Of a stretch of DNA of 64,000 nt, positions 44,744 through 59,664 are shown piece by piece. How positions within the stretch are numbered: the first letter of the stretch is position 1; each line of letters begins with the position of its first letter. The stretch comes from Escherichia phage ESCO13. A model generated the notes under the pieces. The model was not told the DNA's origin. It was given only the letters and a program-made list of their open reading frames with translations, and searched no databases. The translations under genes were made by a program, and so were the position numbers. The DNA lies in sequence record NC_047770.1; one strand, given 5' to 3'.

Positions 44744-45703
44744 TTAGATTCCAATAATAGTTGCTGCTCGTTTATCTTTGGATCTGGTGTTTGCTCTACT
44801 ACGTGACAAACCTCCACAAGATTCACAACGAATGATATCGAAAGAACTTACCGCAGTGTGGTATTGCTTACCAGTAACAACGTGAACATGATCACTGCCG
44901 CAACGAGAACAACGGACTTTCTCATCTGGGTAATAAGCGGATAAGTTAGGATGCTGTGGAATCCACGGAAGGATTTTCATATACAAATCACGGAGTGAAA
45001 CAACATCACCGTCATTGTAAATCTGCATACGTTCAAAAGCATCACGATCACCTTCACAACATGCTTTCCATAAAGGGAACCCCTCGTTATCCAGTTTTTC
45101 ACTTTCTGTTTCGAAATATGCTCCCATTTCTTTAAGGGAGTTGGAAGGAAGTGCAAATTGTTTCTTAGCTGCCTTCAATGTATCAACAACTACATAATTA
45201 GAAGGAGGAGCCATATCGTGATATGCAAATCGTTGGTTAATGTATGCACGGTCAAACTTATATCCGTTGTGTGCCACAACTACATCTGCCTCATTCAGAA
45301 GGTTCCAAAGATCTTGGCAAAGCTCCCAATCATCTGTATGATCAATATCAAAAAGAGGATAAGAAGACAAGTTCTTACCTTCCACTTCACCAGTATACAG
45401 GTCGGCAGAAGAGTAAGATAACAAATAACCCCTACGAATTACTTGATCTGGAGAAATGAAGGCTTTGAATCGACGGAAAGTATATGCAATCTCTGGTGCA
45501 GTTTCAACATCAATAATTTTAATAACTGGTTGTTTCTTTTTAACTGGCTCTTGTTTACTTGCACCGAAACGTGCAAGGAAATCATTTACTGTGCTTTTTC
45601 TTGTCGGGCTACCTAAAACAATTGCTGCAATATTGCGAGAAGACATACCCTCTGCACTCATACTAAGGATATCTGCTTTCTGCTCTTCTGTTAATCTGCT
45701 CAC
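44744..45703 (-). CDS. DnaQ-like (DEDD) 3'-5' exonuclease with N-terminal HTH and C-terminal zinc ribbon
   Basis: IIDVETA (Exo I), VAHNGYKFD (Exo II), YNDGDVVSLRDLY (Exo III); CSRCGS...CESCGG; SD aggagg. Confidence 0.55.
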   Translation of the reverse strand: MSRLTEEQKADILSMSAEGMSSRNIAAIVLGSPTRKSTVNDFLARFGASKQEPVKKKQPVIKIIDVETAPEIAYTFRRFKAFISPDQVIRRGYLLSYSSADLYTGEVEGKNLSSYPLFDIDHTDDWELCQDLWNLLNEADVVVAHNGYKFDRAYINQRFAYHDMAPPSNYVVVDTLKAAKKQFALPSNSLKEMGAYFETESEKLDNEGFPLWKACCEGDRDAFERMQIYNDGDVVSLRDLYMKILPWIPQHPNLSAYYPDEKVRCSRCGSDHVHVVTGKQYHTAVSSFDIIRCESCGGLSRSRANTRSKDKRAATIIGI

Positions 45704-46389
45704 TCTGCCTCCTGTTGTGAGATGTATGACTGAAGCATACTCTCAAATGTTGTATCGTCATTATCCCAGCGTTTCATGTATACCAACTGGAAAATTGTTT
45801 CTATCCATTCATCTGTTGTCATATGGACTTCTTCTCCATCCCAAGAAGTAAAATTAACACCATCTGGGAACCACGAGTAGTAAGTATCTTTAACTGTTTG
45901 GAAAAGCTCTGCTTGAGTTTTACAAGCTGAAAGAAGATTAAAACAAGTAATATCTCCAAACTTAATATCAAAATCTTGATAAGGTCGGATACTATCTGTT
46001 TTATCTCCCATTAGCATCTGATAGGCTAACCAATAACTTCCCCAACCTTTAACTTCTTTCTTTTTACCTTTATCTACGATCCATATGTCGCCAATAGACT
46101 CGTCAATAAGAATTATATCTGGATTTTTAAATACTCCATCCTCTTTGTAGAAATTAAAAAGGATACTAGGAGTATGTAAACTATCTTTATCTATAGACAC
46201 TACAATATAAGAAAATTTACCCGTCCTTTTATAATCTTTATAACCTTGGAAACCATACTTCTCTAACTCATCGTCAGCCTCTATTACAGTAACAACATCA
46301 CCATTGTGGAACTCCACAAGATAATCTTTGGTTTCTGAAAGCTGAAGTGGTTTGATATCTAATCGTTCAGACTTATATTCTACAGGCAT
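45700..46389 (-). CDS. hypothetical protein; reading frame stays open 147 codons further upstream (to 46830) with no ATG/GTG/TTG
   Basis: Track ORF from ATG 46389 has no SD; the in-frame extension contains Walker A-like GVIGVGKT. Confidence 0.4.
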   Translation of the reverse strand: MPVEYKSERLDIKPLQLSETKDYLVEFHNGDVVTVIEADDELEKYGFQGYKDYKRTGKFSYIVVSIDKDSLHTPSILFNFYKEDGVFKNPDIILIDESIGDIWIVDKGKKKEVKGWGSYWLAYQMLMGDKTDSIRPYQDFDIKFGDITCFNLLSACKTQAELFQTVKDTYYSWFPDGVNFTSWDGEEVHMTTDEWIETIFQLVYMKRWDNDDTTFESMLQSYISQQEAE

Positions 46390-46830
46390 TTTGAAGGCGT
46401 GTCTGAAAGTTTTTCCTACGCCAATAACTCCGCAATATTTTTCTAAACGTAGATGTTTTAGAATACCTAAGACTTTTGTTTTAGCTGCTTGGAAGGTGTG
46501 TCCGATATCTTCTGGCGGGTATTGCTTATCAATAATTTCGAACTCTTCCTTTGTGAAGGGACGTTTGTTTTTGGAGGCTCTTTCTGCATTTGTATCTCCT
46601 AGCCAACCTCCAATTTTAGTCTTACTTTTACCCCAAAACTCTGTCTTATTTTTAAATTCCTTTTGAGCACCTGAAGGGATGTGCTTCGCAATGATTGTTC
46701 TTTTCTCTAATGCAGACGCTGCTTGGAAAGCAATCTGATCATAATCAATTGCAGCTATTGTCTCTTCGTTGACATATAAATGAAGATCTTCAGGTTTAAT
46801 TAAAATATAACCGCTAATATTTCCCCCTAA

Positions 46831-47040
46831 TTATTCATCGTCATCCTCTGTTGAGAATGTTTTAGTATACGGACATTGACGACTTTTCGGGATTGCTATA
46901 ACTTCATCTTGGTTAGCGTTAGAATAGTAGCAATATTTTGTGTTGCCATTAACTTCAGAATCAGACAAGATTAAAGTAATTTGACCTGCTGCTACTGTGA
47001 AACTAAAAGCTAAAAGAACGACTGTCAGAATCTTTTTCAT
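46831..47040 (-). CDS. small secreted protein (signal peptide)
   Basis: MKKILTVVLLAFSFTVAAG; SD aggagg. Confidence 0.45.
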   Translation of the reverse strand: MKKILTVVLLAFSFTVAAGQITLILSDSEVNGNTKYCYYSNANQDEVIAIPKSRQCPYTKTFSTEDDDE

Positions 47041-47112
47041 AACGCCTCCTAAAAAGCCTACCTCATTAAGTAGGTAGGCATAATATCATAACTAATCCCG
47101 CAAGTCAAGAAC

Positions 47113-47991
47113 TTATTTAAGGATTGTTGCTTTGGTTAAATCTTCCATCAGACCTCGAATCTCATTGAAGCACAGAAGGACTGAAGCTTCAATACTACCT
47201 TCTTCGTCTGCAAAATATTTCGGAAAACGTAGTTTAGAAAGTTTAAACTCTTTATCCACTACAAAATCTACAACACCGTCATATTCAAGACCGATTGCAA
47301 CAACATCTTTACCATCTTCTTTTAGTTCGACAGCTTTAGACTCGTATAGAGATTCTTTACTCCAAACAACAACGCCCTCGCTATCCTCCATTTTGATATA
47401 ATTTCCGAGAGTAATACGATCTGCTTCGTGATTCTCCAGCAATTCACCAAAACCTTTTACAATAGCTTCTTCGTGCACACTAAAACCTACCGAAGGGAAA
47501 GTCCCCAGGACGGAACGGAGGAAAGAAGTAATCTCTTCTGCAACCTTTTTACTTCCATTAAGAACATAAAGAAGATTCGTAGTTTTATCCAAGACAACAT
47601 AGTTAAAGAAATCTTCAGGTTCTGTTTCAGGCAATAGTGCAAATTCAATATCTTCTTTCATTGCTTTGACTACTTCTTTATCGACATAAAACTCTTTACC
47701 TTCGCTCTCCATGTCCTGACGCATTTCTTCTAGACGTTCATTCAGAATACGTTTAACTTTCTTTTTATCTACCTTCTTCACAGATTGACCTACATTAAGC
47801 AGTTCAAGATCTGAAAACTCTTTTACAAATTTAGAGTCATCTTCGAAACGAACAAGACCGATAGTGTGTGACTGGGAGCCTTCTGCTGTTACAAATTCCA
47901 GAGGAATATCTGTAATGCTGTTAAGGGATGCTACAGAAGCATTGTCACCAACAACCATAGGCAGAGCGGATTTAAAAGATTTTACAAACAT
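47113..47991 (-). CDS. RdgC-like recombination-associated protein
   Basis: Central LLPE...NLLYVLNGSKKVAEEI..LRSVLGTFP resembles E. coli RdgC (from memory); about 290 aa; SD taggagg. Confidence 0.45.
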   Translation of the reverse strand: MFVKSFKSALPMVVGDNASVASLNSITDIPLEFVTAEGSQSHTIGLVRFEDDSKFVKEFSDLELLNVGQSVKKVDKKKVKRILNERLEEMRQDMESEGKEFYVDKEVVKAMKEDIEFALLPETEPEDFFNYVVLDKTTNLLYVLNGSKKVAEEITSFLRSVLGTFPSVGFSVHEEAIVKGFGELLENHEADRITLGNYIKMEDSEGVVVWSKESLYESKAVELKEDGKDVVAIGLEYDGVVDFVVDKEFKLSKLRFPKYFADEEGSIEASVLLCFNEIRGLMEDLTKATILK

Positions 47992-48047
47992 GTTTCCTCC
48001 TATTTAATACATCTCACATTACCGCCCATAAAGGGCGGCTTACAACA

Positions 48048-57536: not shown

Positions 57537-57608
57537 GGCCCTGTAGCTCAATGGGAGAGCTGTCGGCTCATAACCGATAGGTAGCTGGATCGAAACCAGC
57601 CAGGGCCA
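57537..57608 (+). tRNA. tRNA-Met or Ile2 (anticodon CAT)
   Basis: Hand-folded cloverleaf; acceptor ggccctg/cagggcc; loop cuCAUaa; CCA encoded; resembles E. coli tRNA-Ile2 (from memory). Confidence 0.7.
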
Positions 57609-57613
57609 CCAAA

Positions 57614-57685
57614 GTCTTTATGGTGTAATGGATAGCACAGGAGTCTTCTAAACTCTTAGTCAAGGTTCGATTCCTTGTAAAGACA
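57614..57685 (+). tRNA. tRNA-Arg (anticodon TCT)
   Basis: Acceptor gtcttta/taaagac; loop cuUCUaa; T-arm caagg-ttcgatt-ccttg; CCA encoded. Confidence 0.7.
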
Positions 57686-57884
57686 CCAGAACATTTTAAC
57701 ATGAATTAGCTCAAGTGATTTGAACCCACTACTGATCATGGTGGCAGAGAATGAGGCAAGTATGTCAGACATTATAAACAAAGGCCACGGTTATATTAGA
57801 AGACATAAATGCTCGAAGAGCACCGTTCGTGGAGAACGGGGGTTGGTGGAGTCACCATTCATGGTAAAATGTTTTAAAAAACTA

Positions 57885-57914
57885 TTGACAACAAACATTA
57901 TTTTATGTTAGATT
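57885..57914 (+). promoter_or_regulatory. sigma70-like promoter inside the tRNA cluster
   Basis: TTGACA-18-TAGATT. Confidence 0.4.
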
Positions 57915-57922
57915 ATAAGTAT

Positions 57923-58010
57923 GGAAGGGCAAATCGATGTGGCGACGAAAACGGTCTTGAAAACCGCCGAGCTTGAAAGAGCCTTGGGAGTTCGACTCTC
58001 CCTCCTTCCG
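57923..58010 (+). tRNA. tRNA-Ser (anticodon TGA)
   Basis: Long variable arm; loop cuUGAaa; T-arm gggag-ttcgact-ctccc; CCA encoded. Confidence 0.6.
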
Positions 58011-58018
58011 CCAGATTA

Positions 58019-58101
58019 GGTAGATTGGTGAAATGGTAGCCACGACAGTTTGCTAAACTGTAGTCGGAAACGGCGTGTAGGTTCGAGTCCTACATCTACC
58101 G
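58019..58101 (+). tRNA. tRNA-Ser (anticodon GCT)
   Basis: Acceptor ggtagat/atctacc; loop uuGCUaa; long variable arm; CCA encoded. Confidence 0.6.
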
Positions 58102-58234
58102 CCAAGTTCTTTTTAATGTAGCTTACTTTAGCAGAGTAAATCTTCGGCAAGTGGCGGTAACCACTTTACCGATACCTCATAGTTAGTGGTGTGAACACTG
58201 GCTATTTTAAAAAGAATTTAAATATTAGTATTTA

Positions 58235-58319
58235 GGTGAGTTAATTCCGTAGGGGTAGCGGGGCAGACTGTAAATCTGTTATCATTGCGATTCGGGTGGT
58301 TCGACTCCATCACTCACCA
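58235..58319 (+). tRNA. tRNA-Tyr (anticodon GTA)
   Basis: Acceptor ggtgagt/actcacc; loop cuGUAaa; long variable arm; CCA encoded. Confidence 0.65.
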
Positions 58320-58328
58320 CCAAATTAA

Positions 58329-58411
58329 GATGAGTTGGCTGAATGGTTTAAGCGGCGGACTGTTAATCCGTGTTCGAAAGAACAATATAGGTTCGAATCC
58401 TATACTCATCG
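58329..58411 (+). tRNA. tRNA-Asn (anticodon GTT) with unusually long variable arm
   Basis: Anticodon arm gcgga-cuGUUaa-tccgt matches E. coli tRNA-Asn (from memory); extra gttc-gaaa-gaac hairpin in variable region; CCA encoded. Confidence 0.55.
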
Positions 58412-58505
58412 CCAGAATTATGGACTTGTAGAGTTAAGGTAAACCCCCCAGTCGCCAATAGGCTTCTGGAATTGCAGGTATCGAATCCTGCCGAGTCCCA
58501 GCATT

Positions 58506-58577
58506 GCTCCTATAGTATAATGGCTATTACAACGGTTTTGTAATCCGTGGATCTCTGTTCGATTCAGTGTGGGAGCA
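58506..58577 (+). tRNA. tRNA-Thr (anticodon TGT)
   Basis: Acceptor gctccta/tgggagc; loop uuUGUaa; one mismatch each in anticodon and T stems; CCA encoded. Confidence 0.5.
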
Positions 58578-58854
58578 CCAACACAACATTAAGAGCACTG
58601 TGATTGATCGTCGTATCCTGTGCACAAGGTCTGCTCGAAAGACAGTGTTCTTAGTATTGTGTTGATCACAAAAAGAGTCACCCGAAACTTGACCGGAGTA
58701 GGGTTGGATGGGGCAAAATGAGAAGCGGCTCTCCCATCGACAGCAACGAAGAATAATATTTGACTTTGGTTTTGTATTATTTTAAGTTAGCTTACCGAAC
58801 GTAGGGCTAGTCACCCAACGGGATACTCGTCACTGTCCCAATCAATAAAAGTCT

Positions 58855-58883
58855 TGACAACAAATAGTAAAATGTAGTATAGT
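58855..58883 (+). promoter_or_regulatory. sigma70-like promoter upstream of tRNA-Gly
   Basis: TTGACA-17-TATAGT. Confidence 0.5.
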
Positions 58884-58894
58884 AAATATATATG

Positions 58895-58965
58895 GCGTTC
58901 TTGGTGTAGCGGTAGCATTCCGTCCTTCCAAGTCGGCGGCACGAGTTCGATCCTCGTAGAACGCT
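58895..58965 (+). tRNA. tRNA-Gly (anticodon TCC)
   Basis: Acceptor gcgttct/agaacgc; loop cuUCCaa; T-arm acgag-ttcgatc-ctcgt; CCA encoded. Confidence 0.65.
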
Positions 58966-59066
58966 CCAAATTATTTAATAAAGGGTTGCCAGAAAACTTT
59001 CTCTTTTACTCATGGTTTTCTCCTTCTCTCACACTTCTTCTGGTTGCCCTTCATTAAATGATTTAT

Positions 59067-59139
59067 TGGTTTGTAGTGTAGTCCGGTAGCACACGACACT
59101 TTGACTGTCGTAGGTTTGGTTCAAATCCAGACAGACCAG
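59067..59139 (+). tRNA. tRNA-Gln (anticodon TTG)
   Basis: U1-A72 and discriminator G as in E. coli tRNA-Gln (from memory); loop cuUUGac; CCA encoded. Confidence 0.65.
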
Positions 59140-59235
59140 CCATATAACAAAGGTGAGTCACTACCTTAAGTGTGAAGTTAAAAACGAGGAGCCGCCGAAC
59201 ACTTTCTTTTGCGGTGTACCTTTAGAATGTTATCA

Positions 59236-59309
59236 CGGGACGTAGCACAGCTTGGTAGTGCGCTCGCTTTGGGAGCGAGAGGTCGAGTGTTCGAATCACT
59301 CCGTCCCGA
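59236..59309 (+). tRNA. tRNA-Pro (anticodon TGG)
   Basis: C1-G72 start as in bacterial tRNA-Pro; loop uuUGGga; T-arm gagtg-ttcgaat-cactc; CCA encoded. Confidence 0.7.
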
Positions 59310-59318
59310 CCAATTAAA

Positions 59319-59389
59319 TGTTTCGTAGTTCAATGGTAGAACCCACGACTGATAATCGTGAGACACAAGTTCGATTCTTGTCGAAACAA
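59319..59389 (+). tRNA. tRNA-Ile (anticodon GAT)
   Basis: Anticodon arm cacga-cuGAUaa-tcgtg; T-arm acaag-ttcgatt-cttgt; CCA encoded. Confidence 0.65.
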
Positions 59390-59470
59390 CCAGTTTCCCG
59401 TTAGACTTACAGGATAAGAGTTCCACAGCTTATTGTGATGCTGGTTCGAATCCAGCACGGGATACATAAT

Positions 59471-59546
59471 AGCGGGATAGAGGAGTCTGGTCGTCCTCGC
59501 CAGTTTCATATGCTGGAGATCATCGGTTCAAATCCGATTCCCGCCT
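59471..59546 (+). tRNA. tRNA-Met (anticodon CAT), A1-C72 mismatch
   Basis: D-stem gagg/cctc; anticodon arm ccagt-uuCAUau-gctgg; T-arm atcgg-ttcaaat-ccgat; CCA encoded. Confidence 0.6.
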
Positions 59547-59664
59547 CCAAATATCGCTTGCCAGCGGTATCTTTGAAGACCTTGCCTGGTTCCTTCTAAG
59601 ATGGAGGGGTGCGACTCCTTAACGCACAATTATAATAAAGCATTTCAACTTAACAGTATTTACT

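What the first reader, a model, noticed from the sequence alone, without database searches (positions are those of the whole stretch)
45700..47040. ORF with a 147-codon start-less in-frame extension, separated from an upstream signal-peptide ORF by one TAA
The frame of ORF 45700-46389 stays open upstream to 46830 with no ATG, GTG or TTG; I checked every triplet by hand. The extension is protein-like and contains a P-loop-like GVIGVGKT. The track start at 46389 has no SD. The upstream 69-aa ORF is in the same frame across a single TAA at 46831-46833. Possible explanations are a non-canonical start, an indel in the assembly, a nonsense mutation or recoding.
Basis: seen in the sequence. Interest (0 to 1): 0.55.

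Follow-up and report, generated by a model that had tools for sequence, protein, structure and literature searches.

The report
Phage exonuclease gene starting at ATT
The "start-less extension" is the real front third of a phage flap-endonuclease-type 5'-3' exonuclease gene, which most likely begins at a weak ATT start codon, so public genomes of this phage genus annotate only a truncated, catalytically incomplete fragment.

Summary
ORF 45700-46389 (-) stays open to 46830 with no ATG/GTG/TTG, and one TAA separates it from the in-frame 69-aa ORF.

The window is a Phapecoctavirus (phAPEC8-like coliphage). The extension is genuine coding sequence:
- It matches the exonuclease family phrog_107 over nearly its whole length.
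- It is conserved in 543 phage records.
- Almost all its substitutions are synonymous.
- It carries the invariant DxD motif.

The most likely start is ATT at 46818-46816. It lies 4 nt after AGGGGG, the commonest Shine-Dalgarno spacing in this window. Distant relatives (rV5-like and others) have ATG/GTG/TTG at the homologous position. Every relative examined down to about 50% protein identity has ATT, ATC, ATA or CTG there.

Readthrough, assembly error and a functional 229-aa fragment are rejected. GVIGVGKT is not a P-loop.

The true gene is 45700-46818 (-), 372 aa. It is a new, conserved example of infC/pcnB-style near-cognate initiation. It also corrects the annotation in all 60 listed Phapecoctavirus records. 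Initiation at ATT is inferred, not shown.

The parts
45700..46818 (-). Proposed complete 5'-3' exonuclease (flap-endonuclease superfamily) gene: 372 codons plus TGA, starting at ATT
46816..46818 (-). Proposed near-cognate start codon ATT (AUU)
   Evidence: It lies 4 nt after GGGGG, the modal spacing in this window (25 of 46 GGAGG/GGGGG-led starts). It is homologous to the ATG/GTG/TTG starts of distant relatives and to ATT/ATC/ATA/CTG in the close clade. In L013 an in-frame TAA lies directly before the equivalent ATC.
46823..46828 (-). Shine-Dalgarno sequence AGGGGG
   Evidence: Read from the sequence. The equivalent in relatives is AGGAGG or AGGGGG, 3-5 nt from the start-equivalent codon. A 5G/6G length difference here in three genomes shows this stretch is not coding.
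46390..46815 (-). N-terminal 142 codons after the ATT, left unannotated in public Phapecoctavirus records
   Evidence: Among 10 close genomes, 9 of 10 variable columns are third codon positions and synonymous. Against diverged relatives pS is 0.65-0.91 and pN 0.16-0.34. tblastn finds it in 543 phage records. In the 60 listed records it is unannotated or covered only by small hypothetical-protein calls; where inspected these are out-of-frame or too short.
46738..46746 (-). Codons D25-Y26-D27, the invariant DxD of the first beta-strand (first metal-binding aspartate of flap endonucleases, by inference)
   Evidence: D25 and D27 are invariant in the 30-sequence alignment. Strand E16-25 in the model. 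They lie 117 codons upstream of the annotated ATG.
46408..46431 (-). GVIGVGKT: a chance Walker-A look-alike, part of a beta-strand ahead of the FRH...YK..R motif
   Evidence: Only G133 is invariant. The K is replaced by E/P/R/G/D in homologues. The model places residues 127-137 in a strand.
46387..46389 (-). Internal Met144 codon, the start used in public annotation
   Evidence: No Shine-Dalgarno sequence upstream. The column is L or T in several homologues. A protein starting here lacks D25/D27 and the first 143 residues of a single domain.
46831..47040 (-). Upstream 69-aa signal-peptide ORF. Its TAA (46833-46831) ends 12 nt before the ATT, making it a possible translational-coupling partner
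   Evidence: phrog_4641, E 7e-27. It is conserved just upstream of the exonuclease gene in the relatives inspected, with its stop overlapping or abutting the Shine-Dalgarno sequence.
44744..45703 (-). Downstream DnaQ-like 3'-5' exonuclease gene. Its GTG overlaps the TGA of the exonuclease gene (GTGA)
   Evidence: PF13482 RNase_H_2, E 9.5e-10. The overlap is read.
47056..47108 (-). Promoter-like TTGACT-17-TATTAT directly followed by a terminator hairpin; the likely 5' boundary of the small ORF / exonuclease / DnaQ-like operon
   Evidence: Consensus scan. A terminator-like site at 44738-44720 closes the unit.

Best explanation
The region encodes one 372-residue 5'-3' exonuclease of the flap-endonuclease superfamily, at 45700-46818 on the minus strand. 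Its translation starts at the near-cognate codon AUU (46818-46816), read by initiator tRNA as Met. A strong Shine-Dalgarno sequence (AGGGGG) sits 4 nt upstream. The 229-aa ATG ORF of public annotation is an artefact of gene callers that accept only ATG/GTG/TTG.

Shown here:
- The extension is coding and under purifying selection.
- It is part of a single nuclease domain and carries the invariant DxD.
- No canonical start can give the full protein.
- A Shine-Dalgarno sequence sits at the phage's usual spacing in front of the ATT.
- The homologous codon is ATG/GTG/TTG in distant relatives and ATT/ATC/ATA/CTG throughout the Stephanstirmvirinae-like clade.

Inferred:
- The weak start holds the nuclease at a low level, a few percent to about 15% of an AUG in E. 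coli reporters.
- It may make synthesis sensitive to IF3, as for infC, which likewise alternates AUU and AUC.
- It may be boosted by ribosomes that terminate at the stop of the upstream 69-aa ORF 12 nt away.
For: Coding status:
- phrog_107 covers residues 14-371 of the open frame.
- 50 homologues were found, most 336-373 aa and covering the extension.
- tblastn of the extension alone hits 543 phage records.
- 9 of 10 variable columns among 10 close genomes are synonymous third positions.
- Synonymous sites are saturated while pN is 0.16-0.34.

One domain:
- The model has pLDDT 94.8 with no low-confidence segment.
- D25 and D27 are invariant.

Start site:
- GGGGG-4 nt-ATT, and 4 nt is the modal spacing in this window (25 of 46).
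- This is the only GGAGG/GGGGG motif in the window followed by a near-cognate codon and an ORF over 100 codons.
- Clade table: ATT in the window, Justusliebigvirus, L014-20 and L089. ATC in PsgM04F, L005, L012, L013, L088 and L090. ATA in L021. CTG in L022. Each has GGAGG or GGGGG 3-5 nt upstream.
- In L013 a TAA directly precedes the ATC.
- In three Phapecoctavirus genomes an extra G puts a TAG three codons upstream of the ATT.
- rV5, W70, Nankokuvirus and IMG/VR relatives have ATG/GTG/TTG at the same position, giving M-(S)-G-Y....

Literature:
- AUA, AUC, AUU and CUG are the four near-cognates that initiate above the general background in E. coli, at 1-2% of AUG (bioRxiv 10.1101/063800).
- infC uses AUU or AUC in all bacteria (PMC5499595).
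- AUU was 6-8 times weaker than AUG in a reporter (PMC3592434).
Against: - There is no direct evidence of the protein's N-terminus and no ribosome-initiation data.
- ATT, ATC and ATA are all Ile codons, so their alternation alone would also fit an ordinary internal Ile. The argument rests on the combination with the Shine-Dalgarno sequence, the nearby upstream stops and the homologous canonical starts.
- Some clade members have canonical codons a few residues downstream that gene callers use: TTG at codon 12 in PsgM04F, TTG at codon 6 in L089, GTG or TTG just before the DxD in L012 and L014.
- Pfam does not recognise the window protein. Sequence searches of PDB find nothing.
- No literature on this gene's start was found.
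Confidence: 0.85

Rival explanations
1. The full-length protein is made, but initiation is at a different non-canonical codon in the first dozen codons (for example ATT at codon 5 or codon 7 of the proposed protein). Alternatively, ribosomes that terminated on the upstream ORF restart without strict codon choice.
For: Several Ile and Leu codons follow (ATT AGC GGT TAT ATT TTA ATT). The upstream stop is only 12 nt away, and reinitiation after termination is documented in E. coli (PMC3592434).
Against: The later ATT codons lie 16 and 22 nt from the G-run, far outside the spacing used in this window. The residues SGYILIKPEDL are conserved across the clade. Relatives start with M-(S)-G-Y exactly at this codon.
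Confidence: 0.07
2. The functional product is the 229-aa protein from ATG 46389, and the upstream 147 codons are a decaying remnant.
For: It is the only canonical start, and every inspected public annotation uses it.
Against: - The extension shows the same purifying selection as the rest of the gene.
- It has no stop in any of more than 20 diverged relatives.
- It carries the invariant D25/D27 and much of the central sheet of a single domain.
- There is no Shine-Dalgarno sequence before the ATG, and Met144 is not conserved.
Confidence: 0.02
3. Readthrough or recoding of TAA 46833-46831 fuses the 69-aa signal-peptide ORF to the exonuclease.
For: The two ORFs are in the same frame in this window and are separated by one stop. 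One database protein (P0005, 444 aa) looks like such a fusion.
Against: - The DNA of P0005 has TAG; the caller translated it as Q, so the fusion is an artefact.
- The frames differ in PaulScherrer, in PsgM04F and in three Phapecoctavirus genomes with a 6-G run.
- L013, L021 and L022 have two stops in a row.
- A secretion signal on a DNA nuclease makes little sense.
Confidence: 0.02
4. A sequencing or assembly error hides a normal start codon or a frameshift.
For: None beyond the oddity itself.
Against: The junction is identical in all nine other close genomes examined, six of them base for base, apart from the 5G/6G Shine-Dalgarno variant. All 63 records match at 95-100% identity. The architecture also recurs in diverged relatives.
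Confidence: 0.01

Closest known systems
E. coli infC (IF3) and pcnB: genes that initiate at AUU
   Same: A near-cognate AUU is preceded by a Shine-Dalgarno sequence and lies close to the stop of the upstream cistron (the infC junction is UAA GGU AUU). The weak codon is conserved across orthologues, with AUU/AUC interchange as reported for infC.
   Different: This is a phage nuclease gene, not a host translation or RNA-metabolism gene. ATA and CTG also occur at the site. IF3 dependence and autoregulation are untested, and there is no reason to expect autoregulation.
Phage T5 D15 flap endonuclease, T4 RNase H and E. coli ExoIX (5'-3' exonuclease / flap-endonuclease superfamily)
   Different: Sequence identity is only 12-20%. 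Pfam and PDB sequence searches give no hit for the window protein. It is about 100 residues longer than T5 flap endonuclease. Those enzymes' genes use ordinary starts (own knowledge, not checked here).
rV5 ORF94 'putative exodeoxyribonuclease' (Vequintavirinae) and its relatives
   Same: It is an orthologue at about 37-43% identity, with the same length class and the same N-terminus (M-S-R-E-Y-P-L-I-E against (M)-S-G-Y-I-L-I-K-P-E).
   Different: It starts at a canonical TTG (ATG or GTG in other relatives) and is therefore annotated at full length.

Membership tests
Flap-endonuclease / 5'-3' exonuclease superfamily (PIN-like nuclease domain plus helix-3-turn-helix) | PIN-like alpha/beta nuclease fold shared with T5 flap endonuclease, T4 RNase H and ExoIX | tested here: met
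Flap-endonuclease / 5'-3' exonuclease superfamily (PIN-like nuclease domain plus helix-3-turn-helix) | Conserved clusters of acidic metal-binding residues | tested here: met
   D25, D27, E180, D182, D210, D212, D272 and D275 are invariant in 30 sequences. Matching them one-to-one with the T5 flap-endonuclease residues is my inference, not a computed superposition.
Flap-endonuclease / 5'-3' exonuclease superfamily (PIN-like nuclease domain plus helix-3-turn-helix) | Match to the curated sequence models (Pfam PF02739 / PF01367) | tested here: inconclusive
   The window protein has no Pfam hit at E below 0.1. Homologue P0038 (50% identity) carries a precomputed PF02739 hit. phrog_107 'exonuclease' matches at E 1e-55.
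Flap-endonuclease / 5'-3' exonuclease superfamily (PIN-like nuclease domain plus helix-3-turn-helix) | 5' nuclease activity on flap or nicked DNA | not testable with these tools
   Needs a biochemical assay.
Genes initiated at a near-cognate (AUU-class) codon, such as infC and pcnB | No ATG/GTG/TTG can encode the complete conserved protein | tested here: met
   The first canonical codon is codon 147 of the open frame. The same holds in L005 (codon 145) and L020 (none in the 200 codons scanned). In L004, L013, L021 and L022 the first canonical codon lies after the DxD.
Genes initiated at a near-cognate (AUU-class) codon, such as infC and pcnB | Near-cognate codon at working distance from a Shine-Dalgarno sequence | tested here: met
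   AGGGGG-AAAT-ATT. A 4-nt spacing is the mode for this window.
Genes initiated at a near-cognate (AUU-class) codon, such as infC and pcnB | The weak codon is kept across orthologues at the position where relatives have a canonical start | tested here: met
   ATT, ATC, ATA or CTG in about 14 distinct lineages, against ATG/GTG/TTG in distant relatives.
Genes initiated at a near-cognate (AUU-class) codon, such as infC and pcnB | Experimentally determined N-terminus or initiation site | not testable with these tools
   No proteomic or ribosome-profiling data are available here.
Genes initiated at a near-cognate (AUU-class) codon, such as infC and pcnB | Repression by IF3 | not testable with these tools
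   Needs reporter assays in infC mutant or IF3-overproducing cells.
P-loop NTPase (Walker A) | GxxxxGK[ST] conserved among homologues and placed in a strand-loop-helix of an NTPase fold | tested here: not met
   The pattern is present in the window (GVIGVGKT). The K is E, P, R, G or D in homologues. Residues 127-137 are a beta-strand in the model, and the fold is a flap endonuclease.
Programmed stop-codon readthrough or recoded fusion | Conserved in-frame arrangement of the two ORFs across a single stop | tested here: not met
   The frames differ in L004, L006 and three 6-G Phapecoctavirus genomes. L013, L021 and L022 have double stops.

The most novel reading that the evidence does not exclude
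The near-cognate start, kept over long divergence in a whole phage subfamily, may be an adaptive switch rather than a simple way to lower expression. It could work together with the phage's own initiator-like tRNA-CAU (59471-59549).

That tRNA has formylation-type marks (A1xC72 mismatch, G2:C71, C3:G70, A11:U24). It lacks the three G:C pairs of the anticodon stem that IF3 inspects. It could therefore relax start-codon proofreading during infection and turn on the nuclease at the right time.

The evidence here shows only that the two features occur together in the same taxon.
Probability: 0.05. Interest if true: 0.8.

Novelty: new member of a known kind. Interest (0 to 1): 0.45.

Why it matters
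Annotation: all 60 listed Phapecoctavirus records carry a 229-aa fragment that lacks the N-terminal 143 residues and the first catalytic aspartates. The inspected Justusliebigvirus record (and matching contigs) and Klebsiella phage phi1_175008 are mis-started in the same way. The gene should be 372 aa. Gene callers limited to ATG/GTG/TTG will keep repeating the error.

Biology: only two AUU-initiated genes, infC and pcnB, are confirmed in E. coli. This would be a third, phage-borne case. It has unusually clear comparative support, and the weak codon has been kept while the protein diverged to about 50% identity. It offers a natural system for asking why a phage holds a replication or recombination nuclease at a weak, possibly IF3-sensitive or coupling-dependent start.

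Tried and rejected
- Pfam scan of the 376-aa frame: only a spurious sub-threshold hit.
- PDB sequence searches with the single protein and with a 30-sequence profile: nothing relevant. Homology to flap endonucleases had to be shown by fold.
- RNA folding around the start: no structure beyond shuffled controls, z = 0.05. A structural switch is therefore not supported.
- P0005, an apparent natural fusion of the small ORF and the exonuclease: an artefact of a TAG=Q gene call.
- Scan of the window for other start-less long ORFs or other Shine-Dalgarno-plus-near-cognate candidates: none convincing. Two hits with ORFs of 95-98 codons look like positions inside genes.
- Nankokuvirus and Vequintavirinae relatives, checked in case they share the phenomenon: they use ATG.
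- Literature searches for an ATT/AUU start in this phage group or gene: nothing.
- The phage tRNA lead was only partly followed.

Full report
**What is there.** The window is a phAPEC8-like coliphage (genus Phapecoctavirus, subfamily Stephanstirmvirinae). Bases 45000-48000 match 63 phage records at 95-99.4% identity. On the minus strand the ORF list gives a 229-aa ATG ORF at 45700-46389 and a 69-aa ORF at 46831-47040. Translating 45700-47040 shows one frame: the 69-aa ORF, a single TAA (46833-46831), then 376 open codons. A stop-to-stop scan confirms that the first ATG/GTG/TTG is codon 147. No other long frame in the window comes close to this. The bases before ATG 46389 (cagacacgccttcaaaATG) contain no Shine-Dalgarno sequence. 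Because 63 independent genomes share it, it is not an assembly fault.

**The extension is coding.**
- The PHROG family phrog_107 ('exonuclease') matches residues 14-371 of the 376-residue frame at E 1e-55.
- A search of 5.8 billion proteins returns 50 homologues, most 336-373 aa long and covering 89-99% of the frame. They align along the whole extension.
- tblastn with the 147 extension codons alone finds 543 phage records.
- Among 10 closely related genomes, 9 of the 10 variable columns in the extension are third codon positions and synonymous.
- Against a relative with 79% nucleotide identity, 66 of 91 differences are at third positions.
- Against more distant relatives, synonymous sites are saturated (pS 0.65-0.91) while pN is 0.16-0.34. 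This resembles the downstream 229 codons.

**GVIGVGKT is not a P-loop.** It fits GxxxxGKT only by chance. Only G133 is invariant, and the Lys is E, P, R, G or D elsewhere. The model places it in a beta-strand.

**Where translation starts.** After the TAA the sequence reads TTA GGG GGA AAT ATT AGC GGT TAT. That is AGGGGG, then 4 nt, then ATT at 46818-46816.
- In this window, 25 of 46 starts led by GGAGG or GGGGG have exactly this 4-nt spacing.
- This is the only such motif followed by a near-cognate codon and an ORF longer than 100 codons.

I extracted the homologous site from GenBank relatives, 78 IMG/VR loci and three Logan contigs.

Distant relatives (about 37-43% identity) have a canonical start codon at this position, directly before (S)GY. 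Where the upstream bases were inspected it follows a Shine-Dalgarno-like sequence.
- rV5: AGGAGGGTCT-TTG, the annotated start, giving MSREYPLIE.
- W70: ATG-GGT-TAT.
- IMG/VR loci: ATG, GTG or TTG.
- Nankokuvirus (about 37% identity in the extension) also starts at an ATG after GGAGG, but its N-terminus lacks the GY motif.

Every lineage examined in the clade from 50% to 100% identity has a near-cognate codon there.

| Codon | Lineages |
|---|---|
| ATT | Phapecoctavirus, Justusliebigvirus (TAGGAGGTAAT-ATT), L014-L020, L089 |
| ATC | PsgM04F, Klebsiella phi1_175008, L012, L013, L088, L090 |
| ATA | L021 |
| CTG | L022 |

Each has GGAGG or GGGGG 3-5 nt upstream.

These four codons are the near-cognates that initiate above the general background in E. 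coli, at 1-2% of AUG (bioRxiv 10.1101/063800). infC likewise alternates AUU and AUC across bacteria (PMC5499595).

Three further facts pin down the upstream limit of the coding region.
- In L013 an in-frame TAA lies directly before the ATC.
- In PaulScherrer a TGA lies four codons upstream of the ATT.
- Three Phapecoctavirus genomes have six Gs instead of five in the Shine-Dalgarno run. This puts a TAG three codons before the ATT, and it shows that an indel is tolerated between TAA and ATT.

**Rivals.**
- Readthrough of the TAA is excluded. The in-frame relation to the small ORF is not conserved, and some relatives have two stops.
- The one apparent natural fusion, P0005, is a gene-caller artefact. 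Its DNA has TAG.
- A functional 229-aa fragment is contradicted by the selection data, the fold and the catalytic residues.
- Assembly error is contradicted by the number of independent genomes.
- Initiation at a neighbouring non-canonical codon cannot be fully excluded. It fits the spacing and the homologous N-termini less well.
- No RNA structure stands out around the site (z = 0.05).

**How it probably works (inference).** The unit appears to be an operon running from a promoter-like site at 47108-47080 to a terminator-like site at 44738-44720. It contains three genes:
1. The well-translated small ORF (AGGAGG-4 nt-ATG).
2. The exonuclease (AGGGGG-4 nt-AUU).
3. A DnaQ-like exonuclease whose GTG overlaps the preceding TGA.

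The AUU would keep the nuclease low relative to its neighbours. AUU was 6-8 times weaker than AUG in one E. coli reporter (PMC3592434) and 50-100 times weaker in another. It would also make synthesis open to IF3 discrimination. The upstream stop is 12 nt away and overlaps or abuts the Shine-Dalgarno sequence in the clade members inspected, so terminating ribosomes may add to initiation. None of this was tested here.

**Comparison with what is known, and novelty.** The mechanism is the infC/pcnB kind of near-cognate initiation. The protein is a divergent flap-endonuclease-type nuclease, orthologous to rV5 ORF94. The new points are:
- This gene, across a whole phage subfamily, uses and conserves such a start.
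- In the 60 Phapecoctavirus records listed, the extension is either unannotated or covered only by small 'hypothetical protein' calls. Where inspected, these are out-of-frame or too-short ORFs.
- The Justusliebigvirus annotation starts at a GTG just after the DxD.
- Full-text searches found no report of this start.

I class it as a new member of a known kind, of moderate interest.

Noticed in passing
window 59471-59549 (+): One of two phage tRNA-CAU genes carries marks of a bacterial initiator tRNA, read by eye: A1xC72 mismatch, G2:C71, C3:G70, A11:U24, and a T-arm GGTTCAAATCC like that of E. coli tRNA-fMet as I recall it. It lacks the three G:C pairs of the anticodon stem (CCAGU/GCUGG). It is at least 92% conserved in Phapecoctavirus, Justusliebigvirus and Klebsiella phi1_175008. 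A 77%-identical Erwinia phage copy is annotated tRNA-fMet. A link to the AUU start is pure speculation.
   Followed up: partly
window 57537-57611 (+): The other tRNA-CAU (GGCCC...GGGCCACCA, with a normal 1:72 pair) resembles, from memory, the ileX type that reads AUA after lysidine modification. It is part of a 10-tRNA cluster at 57537-59549.
   Followed up: no
L088 1501-2835 (Logan contig SRR30397360_28145); protein P0005: A 444-aa database protein 'fusing' the small signal-peptide ORF to the exonuclease exists only because the gene caller read the TAG stop as Gln. The DNA has TAG followed by GAGGGTAAT-ATC.
   Followed up: yes
L092, L093, L094 position 104 of alignment A3; window 46823-46827: Phages ETEC-TG, 536P1 and vB_EcoM_01 have six Gs instead of five in the Shine-Dalgarno run between the upstream TAA and the ATT. 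This could be a real polymorphism or a homopolymer error. Either way it changes the spacing of neither the Shine-Dalgarno 3' end nor the start codon.
   Followed up: yes
window 47056-47108 (-): A promoter-like TTGACT-17-TATTAT with a TG extension ends one base before a terminator hairpin (47079-47056). Transcripts from upstream would stop there. Transcripts from this promoter would start inside the hairpin and escape it.
   Followed up: no
L004 1297-2331 (Escherichia phage PaulScherrer, MZ501100): The Justusliebigvirus 'putative 5'-exonuclease' is annotated from a GTG immediately after the IDYDQ motif, so it too lacks the first conserved aspartates. The same AGGAGG-TAAT-ATT lies 84 nt upstream.
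   Followed up: yes
window 46467-46589 (-): A 40-aa ORF in another frame inside the extension is annotated as 'hypothetical protein' in phAPEC8, dw-ec and the WPEC phages. It is most likely a spurious call filling the apparent gap.
   Followed up: partly
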